A stretch of 64,000 nucleotides of DNA from Eledone cirrhosa. Lineage: Eukaryota. The stretch lies in contig OZ024742.1 of the NCBI GenBank assembly GCA_964016885.1, positions 324,880,001-324,944,000 of the forward strand, given 5' to 3'. Below the pieces are notes generated by a model. That model ran no database searches, was not told the origin of the DNA, and saw only the letters and a list, made by a program, of their open reading frames with translations. Below, in pieces: positions 24,691 through 58,760 of the stretch. Numbering within the stretch: the stretch's first letter is position 1; the number at the start of each line of letters is the position of its first letter. Both the position numbers and the translations under genes were made by a program.

Positions 24691-24737
24691 TGCTTACAAT
24701 TGTTTCCTCCAAACCGAGGTTTGGATTCTTCGGAGTA
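24691..24737 (-). ncRNA. Minimal type-I hammerhead, CCGAAGA core
   Basis: Reverse complement of 29174-29220. Confidence 0.7.
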
Positions 24738-26416
24738 ACTATTTATAACATACTTGACCTCCTTTTCAACCCAAGAGACACATAAAACATATGCGCATAT
24801 TGATCAACAGTGGGGTGACATTCATCAAATGATATAGCATGGCAGTTTACATATAAAGGTTACAGGATAAAAATAAAATAAAATAAAAACAAGAGTGAAA
24901 ATAAGAGTGAAAATAAAGATAAACATGAAGCGTTGGCAGTCTATGAAGATAAAGCAAGAAGAAAGCTTAGAGTAGTCAGTGTATGAAACAATCTCCCGTG
25001 TAGCATGCACGCGTGTCTTATCTATACATGATTAGAGTGCGTCAGAATGATATTTGCAGGGTCAGGCAGCTGAAGCAGGCAATCGATCTTATTATATAGG
25101 CTGAATTATTAAGTAATTTATTGTCATACATCTGTATGATATACAGTCTCGGATGCTGGGAAACGCCAAAATATCAAAAACCTTCAACATACTATAAACC
25201 TTATTGTATCTTAGGCAAGGTCGTACCACTGTCCTTGCTCACACCACCACTCACATAATCCATGAGACGCAATATATATATAGATAACACGCGTCTATCG
25301 TATAATTCGCAGTGGTTCAGCATATAGTCAAGCTATAAACCGTATCCAGTCGGTTCTTAATTAATATATCATGCTGTCCAGATTCCGGAATTGCCTGAAT
25401 GACTAAGGGGAATTAATGCGCAAGGGGAGGTAACTAGCTAGTTATCTTAGTTACATTACTATGCTAAACTACATTAATGGTGATTCAAATACGTGCCTAT
25501 CATGTGAAGTTATAACTAATATCTAGAGTATGTTACCCATTTATAGGTTAGAGAGTTGTCCATTAAGAAGTACAAGGGTGTATATATTAGGATGATTACC
25601 ATCCATTAATTAAGGGGTGTCATATCTGAACGTTCCATAAGAGGAGTCAGACTCTCAAGTCACTGCTCCATGCAGATGTAATATAACAGTAGGACATGGT
25701 ATGGTCCCACTATTATATATGCCACCCGGTAGGCTCCGGGTCATTGCTTGCCTGCATCTCCAGTAAATCTTCGGTATGGTCCGGAGATCCAATCTCTCAT
25801 ATAAATGCACTAGTCTGGCCATCAAGCAATAGACAACCCCCGTCTCAAATATAAATCAATTATGTATCACATCTCCAAGCTAGAGTGGAGTCTATTAATA
25901 GGTATTAAAGGAGTCCACATCAAGATGATTACGTGCATAATTCAATGAACTGATCGCTTACAGTCTATAATCACTTAACAATACGATTATCTATCTAATC
26001 ATCAATCTATCTCTTGGTGGTAATCCATGCACAGGACTATGCTATCGCAACCAGTACCGTGTCACCAATTTATACTAATCTTATATTTGTGCAATGCAGA
26101 ATAAGTAGTCCACGGTCGAGATATCAGTATTAGAGGTACAAGGGGGTATTCCCAGGGTATGTGGTACTAAAATGCTGTCATTATTATCTTTAGAGTATAG
26201 AGATGGGTGTAGATGTGAGGTGTACGGTGTGCTACTGATGTTAATTGCTAGAGGTGGTGCCGGTTCCAGTCTGACATTATTATATATAGGGTTTAAAGTT
26301 TTGGAACGAGTGTCGGAAGCGGTGTTGGCAATTTGCGAACACTTCTGATTTTTTATTAAGGAGATTATGTTTAGAGAAGATGATAGTATGGGTCTCTAGT
26401 AGACAGAGGTTACAAT

Positions 26417-27631
26417 AATCGTAAAACAATAATCACCTTTGAGGACCAATTATGGACCCGCAGGGATACGCAAAACAACTTCGACATTACTATGGGGTCT
26501 AGTGACTCGGCGCAGGTCACTGATTTGGTTGGCCTATACTTACTTAACCTAATCCACAGGGAGCTTCCGTACCTCAGCGGTGGTTTGTATCGCGACGATG
26601 CACTTCTACTTATAGATTATAAAAAATTCAATATAGAAAGGACTAGAAAACTATTGCACAAAACATTCAAAAACTTTAACCTTAGTATTACCATGGGCAA
26701 AAACACCAAAAACAGAAATGACCATAGGAACATTAAAGGAAACAAATCACCAGACATAAAAAACAGAAATAGAAGAAGAAATAATACAATTTTCAACCCT
26801 CCTTTCAATTTAAACGTCTCTACCAACCTTCCTAGGGCTTTCTTCTCACTACTAGATAAACACTTCCCATCCGGCCATAGGTACCACGGCCTTTTAAACA
26901 AAAACACTATTAAGATCTCATACTCTACTACGCCTAACTTAGCATACCACATAGCTAGTACAAATAAAAGAAAAATTAATTCTTACTTCCAACAAACTAA
27001 ATCACAACGGTCGATAAACCTTCAAAATAACATTCAAAATAACAGTCAAAGTAACATTATAACAAATAACCGTAATATCAATGGAAATAATAGTAATAGC
27101 ACTAGTGGAAACATTAACGCTGCGTACCACAACCCGCATAACCATAACCCTATAGCTAACCTCCAAACTTCTACACAGCATAGTAACCGGCAGACTAGCA
27201 CCCAGAGTAATTGTAACTGTAGATCAAGTAGAACCTGCCCTTTAGATAAAAAATGCTTAACCAAGGATATCATATACTCATGTACAGTCACAACTAACAG
27301 CTCTTCTGAAACCTACATAGGCTCCACTTCTAACTGCTTCAAAACTAGATACAATTCGCACCTCCACTCTTTCAAAAAACACAACTCCACTTCACTATCT
27401 AGCTACATACAATATCTAAAAACTAAAAATAAAATATATACACTTAAATGGGAAGTGGTAGGTAGTGCAACATCGTACAAACCTCCTGATAAATTTTGTA
27501 ACCTCTGTCTACTAGAGACCCATACTATCATCTTCTCTAAACATAATCTCCTTAATAAAAAATCAGAAGTGTTCGCAAATTGCCAACACCGCTTCCGACA
27601 CTCGTTCCAAAACTTTAAACCCTATATATAA
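26417..27631 (+). pseudogene. 5'-truncated PLE RT (YRDD) plus GIY-YIG, with in-frame loss of the RT thumb
   Basis: FDITMGSSDSAQVTDLVGLY, GGLYRDD, FNPPF, CNCR..CPL..KCL, IIYSC..TYIGST..FKTRYNSH, CNLCLLE, LNKKSE..CQH. Confidence 0.9.
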
Positions 27632-29173
27632 TAATGTCAGACTGGAACCGGCACCACCTCTAGCAATTAACATCAGTAGCACACCGTACACCTCACATCT
27701 ACACCCATCTCTATACTCTAAAGATAATAATGACAGCATTTTAGTACCACATACCCTGGGAATACCCCCTTGTACCTCTAATACTGATATCTCGACCGTG
27801 GACTACTTATTCTGCATTGCACAAATATAAGATTAGTATAAATTGGGGACACGGTACTGGTTGCGATAGCATAGTCCTGTGCATGGATTACCACCAAGAG
27901 ATAGATTGATGATTAGATAGATAATCGTATTGTTAAGTGATTATATACTGTAAGCGATCAGTTCATTGAATTATGCACGTAATCATCTTGATGTGGACTC
28001 CTTTAATACCTATTAATAGACTCCACTCTAGCTTGGAGATGTGATACATAATTGATTTATATTTGAGACGGGGGTTGTCTATTGCTTGATGGCCAGACTA
28101 GTGCATTTATATGAGAGATTGGATCTCCGGACCATACCGAAGATTTACTGGAGATGCAGGCAAGCAATGACCCGGAGCCTACCGGGTGGCATATATAATA
28201 GTGGGACCATACCAGGTCCTACTGTTATATTACATCTGCATGGAGCAGTGACTTGAGAGTCTGACTCCTCTTATGGAACGTTCAGATATGACACCCCTTA
28301 ATTAATGGATGGTAATCATCCTAATATATACACCCTTGTACTTCTTAATGGACAACTCTCTAACCTATAAATGGGTAACATACTCTAGATATTAGTTATA
28401 ACTTCACATGATAGGCACGTATTTGAATCACCATTAATGTAGTTTAGCATAGTAATGTAACTAAGATAACTAGCTAGTTACCTCCCCTTGCGCATTAATT
28501 CCCCTTAGTCATTCAGGCAATTCCGGAATCTGGACAGCATGATATATTAATTAAGAACCGACTGGATACGGTTTATAGCTTGACTATATGCTGAACCACT
28601 GCGAATTATACGATAGACGCGTGTTATCTATATATATATTGCGTCTCATGGATTATGTGAGTGGTGGTGTGAGCAAGGACAGTGGTACGACCTTGCCTAC
28701 GATACAATAAGGTTTATAGTATGTTGAAGGTTTTTGATATTTTGGCGTTTCCCAGCATCCGAGACTGTATATCATACAGATGTATGACAATAAATTACTT
28801 AATAATTCAGCCTATATAATAAGATCGATTGCCTGCTTCAGCTGCCTGACCCTGCAAATATCATTCTGACGCACTCTAATCATGTATAGATAAGACACGC
28901 GTGCATGCTACACGGGAGATTGTTTCATACACTGACTACTCTAAGCTTTCTTCTTGCTTTATCTTCATAGACTGCCAACGCTTCATGTTTATCTTTATTT
29001 TCACTCTTATTTTCACTCTTGTTTTTATTTTATTTTATTTTTATCCTGTAACCTTTATATGTAAACTGCCATGCTATATCATTTGATGAATGTCACCCCA
29101 CTGTTGATCAATATGCGCATATGTTTTATGTGTCTCTTGGGTTGAAAAGGAGGTCAAGTATGTTATAAATAGT

Positions 29174-29220
29174 TACTCCGAAGAATCCAAACCTCGGTTT
29201 GGAGGAAACAATTGTAAGCA
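29174..29220 (+). ncRNA. Minimal type-I hammerhead, CCGAAGA core, palindromic stem III
   Basis: TACT-CCGAAGA-A-TCCAAACC tc GGTTTGGA-G-GAAA-CAATTG-TA-AGCA. Confidence 0.7.
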
Positions 29221-57728: not shown

Positions 57729-57864
57729 TATATATATATATATATATATATATATATATACATACATATCTATATATATATATATATATATATATATATA
57801 TATATATATACATACATATCTATATATATATATATATATATATATATATATATATATATATATA

Positions 57865-58090
57865 TTGCAATTTGCAAACTTGTCTGTCACCACACATTAT
57901 GAACCTGAAGATTGCGAAAGCATGAAAGTACTTGTTCAATTAACACTTAACATTTAATATTCTACCATACTATTTCATTCTAAATTATAAAGGATTGTAA
58001 ATAAAACGAGTAAATCAGACAAAGTTGGAATTCCTTTTATTAATATAATTTTCTATACACAATCATACACACCCGTGTATATTTATCTAT
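57865..58090 (+). mobile_element. PLE-type 3' end with minimal hammerhead at 57900-57938
   Basis: TGAAC-CTGAAGA-T-TGC gaaa GCA-T-GAAA-GTAC-TT-GTTCA. An inverted relative lies at about 60262-60490. Confidence 0.72.
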
Positions 58091-58381
58091 TTTTATATAT
58101 ATATAGATACAAATATAAATTAGCGAGAATCGTATTTCGGCTTAGGAATTAACGAAAAACAACTTCCGAGATGTGTGGCAAGCGCTCAATGATTGAAATG
58201 AACCAGAGCTACAACATGCGTTAAAAACTAAACACACTGACAAGATGGTTAAACAATCATCCGCAAAGCCATAAAAACGACCAAGTAATTCGGGTCAATA
58301 TAATAATAATAATATATATATATATATATATATATATATATATATATATATATATATATATATATATATATATATATATAT

Positions 58382-58760
58382 AGTATTAGTTATACTATTT
58401 ATGGTTATGTAAACACAAAACCTTAAGCAGTTGTAAGTATTTTACACACACCCTAAATAGTGGTAGGCAGTAATGTATTACTACCTTATTACCAGTAAGT
58501 TAAGTAGCTCAATGTAAAAACATCAGATGATTTACAGAGCAGTTATATGAAATATAAGAATCAAAGAACTGTTCAAAACATTATTGTGCTTACAGCTGTT
58601 TCCTCCAAACCGAGGTTTGGATTCTTCGGAGCAATTTATTAATGCATGGACAGTTATATGACCTCCTTTTCAGCCGAGAGACATACCAATACATATTCAA
58701 ACATTGATACATATTCAAACATTGTGGGTCAACATTCATTTGATTTTTGATTGTACCTAT
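58382..58760 (-). mobile_element. Third family-D PLE 3' end with HHR at 58587-58633
   Basis: Homologous to 24481-24830; TGCT-CCGAAGA...GAAA-CAGCTG-TA-AGCA. Confidence 0.82.

What the first reader, a model, noticed from the sequence alone, without database searches (positions are those of the whole stretch)
24691..58633. Conserved non-canonical CCGAnGA (U4C) hammerhead core with a covarying dimerisation palindrome
Seen: all five family-D copies (24691-24737, 29174-29220, 46871-46917, 49509-49555, 58587-58633), from three independent insertions, have CCGA where the canonical core has CUGA. They also have a mismatched 10.1/11.1 pair (A·G or C·A). The stem III palindrome changes from CAATTG to CAGCTG, a double change that preserves self-complementarity, and stem II varies while staying paired. 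A different family at 10676 also shows CCGAUGA. Established: U4 belongs to the conserved uridine turn, and PLE minimal HHRs cleave as dimers through palindromic stem III. Inference: this is a natural, selected U4C variant that CUGANGA descriptors would miss.
Basis: partly seen in the sequence, partly recalled or inferred. Interest (0 to 1): 0.75.

Follow-up and report, generated by a model that had tools for sequence, protein, structure and literature searches.

The report
Retroelement hammerheads repeatedly switching to C4
Thousands of copies of a jumping gene carry a hammerhead self-cutting RNA motif with a C where nearly all hammerheads have a U, and sister jumping-gene lineages in the same genome made this swap several separate times, so the C form is likely a tolerated, slow cutter rather than a broken one, though cutting is untested.

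Summary
The five motifs are type I hammerheads at the 3' end of three insertions of a Hydra-clade Penelope-like element. C4 is the family state: 7,599 CCGAnGA against 206 CUGAnGA copies, about as many as the opposite-strand CpG control (165). C4 is also found in 46 of 49 copies picked by protein alone. Position 4 behaves as a switching pyrimidine. The palindrome changed in two steps through a G·U intermediate (68/14/18 of 100; the mismatch form 0). Caveats: one copy is CCGAACA; an unpaired first pair of stem II is ordinary in Hydra hammerheads; U4C is known from a viroid; CYGANGA descriptors are in print. Positive selection is suggested, not shown, and cleavage is untested. The scan noted C4 Hydra hammerheads before, in this genome and in two others. 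Verdict: new variant of a known kind.

The parts
24691..24737 (-). Type I hammerhead motif, CCGAAGA core, CAAUUG palindrome, predicted cut after 24695; A·C mismatch in stem I
29174..29220 (+). Same motif, other arm of the same insertion; C4 at 29179, predicted cut after 29216, about 40 nt of tail to 29260
46871..46917 (-). Hammerhead motif, CCGAAGA core, C·A opposite at the base of stem II; short inverted arm of insertion 2
49509..49555 (+). Hammerhead motif with C4 and a copy-specific G8C (CCGAACA); likely inactive
   Evidence: G8C abolishes cleavage in PAc (PMC11167929)
58587..58633 (-). Intact hammerhead motif, CCGAAGA core, CAGCUG palindrome, predicted cut after 58591
24459..29260 (.). Insertion 1: 5'-truncated Hydra-clade PLE (+) with a long inverted arm (-), between (TA)n and (TC)n
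26387..27631 (+). Truncated ORF: end of RT, CxCx5C linker, GIY-YIG-type endonuclease with terminal CxxC and CxH, no internal CCHH
   Evidence: clade features
46826..49754 (+). Insertion 2: 5'-truncated copy of an older subfamily with a short inverted arm
46945..48174 (+). Truncated ORF of insertion 2; endonuclease 78% identical to that of insertion 1
58360..58708 (-). Insertion 3: terminal fragment only, running about 230 nt past the predicted cut site into (TA)n
10676..10794 (+). Different family (E): CCGAUGA core, 94-nt domain II, CAAUUG palindrome; this copy has C at 16.1

Best explanation
These are type I hammerhead motifs in the terminal repeat of a Hydra-clade Penelope-like retroelement, with C fixed at core position 4 in whole lineages and inferred to have arisen from U several times; they likely still cut slowly, as dimers paired through the stem III palindrome, with C4 likely standing in for U in the uridine turn. 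Shown: the element, the fold-compatible anatomy, fixation of C4, U4 and C4 subfamilies side by side, the two-step palindrome change, tandem same-strand copies 4.2 kb apart, and no overlap with the ORF. Inferred: (a) two copies on one tandem transcript form the 8-bp stem III and cut after GUA or GUC; (b) a protonated C4 makes the U-turn hydrogen bond, as in another RNA U-turn; (c) the loss of rate is affordable, because nearly all inserted copies run through the cut site and so were copied from uncut or re-ligated RNA; (d) in these lineages, whose stem I closes with U2.1-A1.1, U4 is predicted to mispair with the cut-site strand and C4 removes that mispairing, which would offset part of the cost and help explain repeated fixation.
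For: Fixation: 7,599 C4 against 206 U4, with 165 opposite-strand CpG changes as control. C4 in 30 of 30 loci anchored on the 3' half and in 46 of 49 loci picked by endonuclease hit; 11 of 60 did not reach the motif. In those 49 the other core columns show 0-3 scattered changes, while N7, N17, 10.1 and 11.1 vary. C4 persists in family C, whose endonuclease is about 60% identical. Repeated origin: 19 C4 rows form a 100/99 clade inside a U4 grade in lineage P. In lineage F, 17 of 18 rows of a 99/96 clade are C4 inside a U4 grade, and a second C4 group exists. One C4 clade is rejected in both trees (p-AU 1e-53 and 1.5e-67). All 26 published Hydra rows have CUGA. Palindrome: AAUU 68, AGUU 14, AGCU 18, AACU 0 of the first 100 rows (counted by eye), in nested order on a flank-only tree. 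The dimer fold is about 1-2 kcal/mol from the ensemble for 5 of 8 C/D representatives, against 2-5 for monomers. Tandem copies and ORF position. C4 gave better access to the dimer fold in 29 of 32 native-C4 copies outside family D. U-turn with protonated C: PMC4105743. A U4C viroid variant stays infectious: PMC3088659.
Against: No cleavage or expression data. In a pairwise mutagenesis of a type III hammerhead, all single mutants in the CUGA turn region had low activity (PMC9901934). The same lineages also fix other changes that look weakening: mismatches at 10.1/11.1 derived from a U-A pair (21 of 31 unpaired), and an A6U subfamily in F (6 rows). These fit decay of catalysis. The folding benefit is absent in family D itself (median 0.04 kcal/mol, 3 for and 4 against), and it is also predicted for three families that kept U4 (P-U4, Q, GAGATT). 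My patterns required a pyrimidine at position 4, so A4 or G4 subfamilies outside family D could not be seen. The trees rest on 135-157 columns and are unrooted. No same-strand pair exists in this window, so these five copies are probably dead ends.
Confidence: 0.55

Rival explanations
1. C4 is positively selected to turn the ribozyme down, because the element is copied from uncut RNA and fast cutters lose templates.
For: Derived C4 clades sit at the tips of lineages P and F. C4 creates a CpG that decays in 2-6% of copies, yet no reverted subfamily expanded in D. 110 of 121 C/D copies keep 40 nt or more beyond the cut site. Uncut RNA was the main insertion substrate for PAc (PMC11167929).
Against: U4 families are just as abundant (5,576 matches; about half of 10,082 long-domain matches) and keep their tails just as often (22 of 26). 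The M/R/S part of the tree needs changes in both directions or several gains.
Confidence: 0.2
2. The motif no longer cuts in these lineages; it is kept as an RNA dimerisation or protein-binding structure, and position 4 drifts.
For: A6U subfamily and derived 10.1/11.1 mismatches. Low activity of CUGA-turn mutants elsewhere. Hammerhead mutants did not impair PAc insertion in vitro. Position 4 changes 8 times on the MPRS tree, near the maximum of 9 among columns outside the stem I flank.
Against: In the protein-anchored sample G5, A6, G8, A9, G12-A15.1 and U16.1 show no subfamily-level change, position 17 shifts only between A and C, and position 4 is only C or U. This is the conservation pattern of a catalytic core. 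About one flank column in five did change, so this alone is only modest evidence.
Confidence: 0.17
3. C4 is a founder accident: one weakly harmful mutation carried along by a successful master element.
For: Each lineage looks like a ladder of single masters, so one event can label thousands of copies.
Against: One origin is rejected in two separate trees. C4 occurs beside endonucleases only 38-46% identical to family D, with unrelated domain II sequences.
Confidence: 0.08

Closest known systems
Hydra clade of Penelope-like elements and their hammerheads (Craig et al. 2021, PMC8557442; passages, section 11, supplement parts 1-2 of 59 seen)
   Same: C-terminal endonuclease with CxCx5C linker, terminal CxxC and CxH, no CCHH; RWR (RWK-like) and DKT motifs; (TA)n insertion; inverted 5' arms and a 40-nt tail; sense-strand type I hammerhead near the 3' end with self-complementary stem III and often an unpaired first position of stem II.
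   Different: All 26 listed Hydra hammerhead rows have CUGA (found with a CUGA-based descriptor); here C4 is fixed in whole lineages. The unit is about 4.2 kb, against under 3 kb, with a 1.2-1.5 kb 3' UTR. Sister lineages have 55-95 nt domain II inserts.
Minimal, dimer-type PLE hammerheads (Cervera and de la Pena 2014, PMC4209133; main text parts 1-3 of 4 and supplement passages seen; Lunse et al. 2017 not held, known only by title and citation)
   Same: Located in pLTRs, short stem I, long stem II, palindromic stem III that pairs between two copies, low expected activity.
   Different: The reported core variant is U3-A8, not C4. G10.1-C11.1 is described as highly conserved. Stem III here is an 8-mer that could also give a 2-bp monomer stem.
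Natural U4C hammerhead of a viroid (Ambros and Flores 1998, not held; seen only as cited in Perreault et al. 2011, PMC3088659)
   Same: The same core substitution; activity much reduced in vitro but enough in vivo.
   Different: A variant in an RNA pathogen; here a state fixed in thousands of genomic copies and reached repeatedly.
U-turn with protonated cytidine (neomycin riboswitch U14C; PMC4105743 and PMC6061696, abstracts and passages seen)
   Same: C replaces the first U of a U-turn.
   Different: Shown by NMR in a riboswitch loop; not shown for a hammerhead core.

Membership tests
Hydra-clade PLE | C-terminal GIY-YIG endonuclease with CxCx5C linker, CxxC and CxH around the conserved E and N, no CCHH | tested here: met
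   Window ORF ends read directly against section 11 of PMC8557442. Pfam gave no significant family for them.
Hydra-clade PLE | RWK motif and DKG changed to DKT | tested here: met
   RWR and DKT in longer copies L252 and L254; DKT in L251
Hydra-clade PLE | Insertion into (TA)n, tandem or inverted structure, tail | tested here: met
Hydra-clade PLE | RT phylogeny groups with published Hydra proteins | not tested
   Published consensus proteins were not brought into a tree
Hydra-clade PLE | Canonical (CUGA) hammerhead | tested here: not met
   C4 in 46 of 49 protein-anchored copies; the hammerhead is present but its core is variant
Type I hammerhead ribozyme | Three helices around C3-N-G5-A6-N7-G8-A9, G12-A13-A14, A15.1-U16.1, H17 | tested here: met
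   (89% of cells paired, against 29-40% when slid)
Type I hammerhead ribozyme | U4 of the uridine turn | tested here: not met
Type I hammerhead ribozyme | G10.1-C11.1 pair | tested here: not met
   U-A in family C, mismatches in family D; also unpaired in 15 of 26 published Hydra rows
Type I hammerhead ribozyme | Match to an Rfam hammerhead model | tested here: inconclusive
   No hammerhead hit in 57540-58720 at E up to 10, neither for the C4 motif nor for the canonical U4 motif at 57595
Type I hammerhead ribozyme | Site-specific self-cleavage after NUH | not testable with these tools
   Needs an assay
Dimer-type PLE hammerhead | Self-complementary stem III kept under change, and same-strand tandem copies | tested here: met
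   AAUU, AGUU and AGCU kept, AACU 0 of 100; two sites 4,209 nt apart in L254 and 4,146 nt apart in L252
Dimer-type PLE hammerhead | Cleaves only or mainly as a dimer | not testable with these tools
   Folding energies favour the dimer in most representatives, which is a prediction only

The most novel reading that the evidence does not exclude
A nucleotide treated as invariant in the hammerhead core is under repeated, convergent positive selection in one retroelement clade. U4 became C at least four times in lineages whose stem I closes with U-A, because C4, as a protonated U-turn base, removes a slipped inactive helix or retunes cleavage rate. Matched U4 and C4 sister subfamilies would then be a natural experiment on what PLE hammerheads are for.
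Probability: 0.3. Interest if true: 0.72.

Novelty: new variant of a known kind. Interest (0 to 1): 0.52.

Why it matters
The function of hammerheads in Penelope-like elements is an open question (PMC8557442, PMC11167929). Here closely related subfamilies differ at a core position, in more than one lineage, which gives ready-made pairs for asking whether cleavage rate matters to the element and whether a protonated C can serve in the hammerhead uridine turn. In practice a CUGA-only search would miss more than 9,000 short-domain copies in this genome and about half of some 10,000 long-domain ones, so hammerhead counts and claims of absence in animal retroelements may be low.

Tried and rejected
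A DNA search of the own genome found nothing, since common words are skipped; patterns were used instead. C4 covarying with A17: suggested, rejected by 1,588 C4 matches with a pyrimidine at 17. A 'CCAAUGA' core family: seen, but the word lies inside a long domain II. C4 in a Neptune-type element: one family-B locus had such an ORF upstream, but homology among B copies ends within 270 nt, so the link was dropped; no ORF could be tied to families B, E, F or K. A coding constraint on C4: rejected, since the ORF starts about 240 nt after the cut site. C4 stabilising an inactive monomer: the computation mostly gave the opposite. A long distal extension of stem I: significant in some representatives only (7 of 18 at 8 or fewer of 200 shuffles), and RNAalifold gave no usable consensus. 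Copies ending at the cut site as a trace of cleavage: 1 of 121 C/D copies, into (TA)n, uninformative. No RNA holder was listed. Laid contigs of organisms B, D and E list no change at 29179, but one search failed to list a known variant (A7), so these tables are weak and I do not count them as support. The whole-window Rfam list was swamped by microsatellite hits, with 160 rows unseen.
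Full report
Observation. The five 47-nt motifs are present as described, each with C at core position 4. They belong to three insertions: two pairs of inverted arms and one lone end.

What carries them. Insertions 1 and 2 hold truncated ORFs that end in a CxCx5C linker and an endonuclease with terminal CxxC and CxH but no CCHH. Longer genomic copies add RWR and DKT motifs. These are the stated features of the Hydra clade of Penelope-like elements (PMC8557442 section 11). 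The motif lies on the sense strand 1.2-1.5 kb after the stop codon. In L254 two sites 4,209 nt apart flank one ORF, which starts about 240 nt after the upstream site, so the core is not coding and a tandem transcript would carry two copies. The window's paired copies face opposite ways and could not dimerise on one strand.

Is C4 the family state? Yes. With the same stem III and spacing, the 3.0-Gb genome has 7,599 CCGAnGA, 206 CUGAnGA and 165 CCAAnGA matches (some rows of the last two lists belong to other families). C4-G5 is a CpG, so similar numbers of U4 and A5 copies point to decay after insertion, and U4 copies scatter over all subfamilies on a flank-only tree. Two samples not chosen by position 4 agree: 30 of 30 loci anchored on the 3' half, and 46 of 49 loci chosen from 60 of the 150 endonuclease hits, with 11 not reaching the motif. 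A further 1,588 C4 matches have a pyrimidine at 17. They are mostly the older family C, whose endonuclease is 57-62% identical to family D. There U4 copies are commoner, roughly a tenth by my count of the listed rows.

C4 is wider than family D and arose more than once. Other families with unrelated stem II carry C4, while large U4 families share the same palindrome (5,576 matches). A pattern for long domain II gave 10,082 matches (control 165). From fetched loci I took 113 motifs, set aside 13 (10 false cores, 2 family-E copies and 1 unrelated single), and built two trees without position 4. In lineage P, 19 C4 rows form a 100/99 clade at the tip of a U4 ladder. In lineage F, a 99/96 clade holds 17 C4 rows of 18 inside a U4 ladder, with a second C4 group beside it and a U4 sister family. 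The M/R/S part mixes both states. One C4 clade is rejected in both trees. Endonucleases linked to P and M are 38-46% identical to family D (four P loci, one M locus). All 26 published Hydra rows are CUGA, so U is the likely ancestral state. Counting C/D, P, F twice and M gives at least four or five gains, or fewer with reversals; the trees are short and unrooted. Position 4 needs 8 and 4 changes on the two trees, like N7 (6 and 9), so tolerance explains the data as well as advantage does. The core invariance in these two sets was imposed by my pattern and is not evidence.

Palindrome and stems. Among the first 100 of 8,365 anchored matches the centre of stem III reads AAUU 68, AGUU 14, AGCU 18 and AACU 0 (counted by eye), and the tree orders them AAUU, AGUU, AGCU. 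This is a clean compensatory path through G·U, but a single event in D; a separate U4 family also has AGCU. Across 31 C/D/K copies 89% of cells of the named structure pair, against 29-40% when slid; 5 of 18 pairs change on both sides, which 47 of 500 shuffles also reach. The first position of stem II is U-A in family C and unpaired in D; 15 of 26 published Hydra rows are unpaired there too.

How it likely works. PLE hammerheads of this build cut weakly and as dimers (PMC4209133), and the PAc motif needed protein (PMC11167929). For 58587 the double-hammerhead fold is within about 1 kcal/mol of the best dimer fold, while the monomer is 3 kcal/mol from its best fold. That U4 makes the U-turn hydrogen bond through its N3 proton is recalled knowledge. 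A protonated C can replace it in another U-turn (PMC4105743), and a natural U4C viroid variant cuts slowly but stays infectious (PMC3088659). Against this, CUGA-turn mutants were poor in a type III scan (PMC9901934). Most inserted copies run 40 nt or more past the cut site (110 of 121 C/D; U4 family 22 of 26), so templates were uncut or re-ligated and fast cleavage is probably not needed. Every C4 family closes stem I with U2.1-A1.1. In silico, U4 often pairs with that A or with the palindrome in a slipped helix. C4 improved access to the dimer fold in 29 of 32 native-C4 copies of B, C, F, K, M/R/S and P, not in D (3 for, 4 against, of 10), and worsened it in the G-C-closing U4 family (9 of 10). 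Three U4 families would also gain from C. Copies are related and the energies are rough, so this is a lead.

Known versus new. U4C as such is known, and a CYGANGA descriptor is in print (PMC13481778, passages). I found no paper that reports C4 fixed in retroelement families (searches; supplement text of PMC4209133 file 2, where both CCGA hits lie outside cores; file 1 not searched). Lunse 2017, Ambros and Flores 1998, Nelson and Uhlenbeck 2008 and Hammann 2012 were not held. Also seen, without bearing on the verdict: PMC6765202 and PMC11014351 (passages), bioRxiv 10.64898/2026.07.22.740005 (part 1 of 5). Earlier notes of this scan report C4 Hydra hammerheads in this genome and two others; they are leads, not support.

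Verdict. The feature is real, a new variant of a known kind, interest 0.52.

Noticed in passing
G000-wide; e.g. L256-L345; window 10676-10794: About 10,000 Hydra-type hammerheads have 55-95 nt inserted in domain II. Standard short-loop descriptors would miss them whatever the core.
   Followed up: partly
L225, L226, L303, L329, L334, L344: A subfamily of lineage F has the core CCGUCGA (C4 plus A6U) in 6 separate copies.
   Followed up: partly
family D, first three bases after A9 and position 2.2 (window 29185-29187, 29176): These bases differ from copy to copy far more (12, 15, 10 and 9 of 49) than their partners (0-3 for the facing GGA; 2 for the G in stem I), in several directions. Possibly a reverse-transcription error hotspot; unexplained.
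   Followed up: partly
window 57595+, 57035-, 37155-, 35593-, 63756-, 5162+, 57905+, 60457-: Canonical CUGA hammerhead motifs of other families, some with the same CAAUUG palindrome; the 57595 type follows a Hydra-type endonuclease 25-31% identical to family D.
   Followed up: partly
window 16420-18569, 29384-31497 (minus) and 59080-59712 (plus): A second PLE type (CCHH endonuclease, Neptune-like by recalled motifs). Its CUGA motifs at 16559-, 29512- and 59934+ lack a normal UH after GAAA.
   Followed up: no
window 24459-24650, 49600-49754, 58360-58545: Some arms run about 230 nt past the predicted cut site, others stop after about 40 nt: two tail lengths in one family.
   Followed up: no
window 51473-55734: A broken Helitron-like Rep/helicase reading frame, judged from the translations (recalled motifs, not searched).
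   Followed up: no
window 3956-4450 (minus): A fragment resembling a mariner-type transposase N-terminus (recalled, not searched).
   Followed up: no
window 2762-3849: A 544-nt perfect foldback (96%) around a long (TA)n run; it may be an assembly artefact.
   Followed up: no
run X5 laid at window 29197: One contig of organism B shows a family-K-like motif with CUGA, whereas K copies in G000 have C4; a single contig.
   Followed up: no
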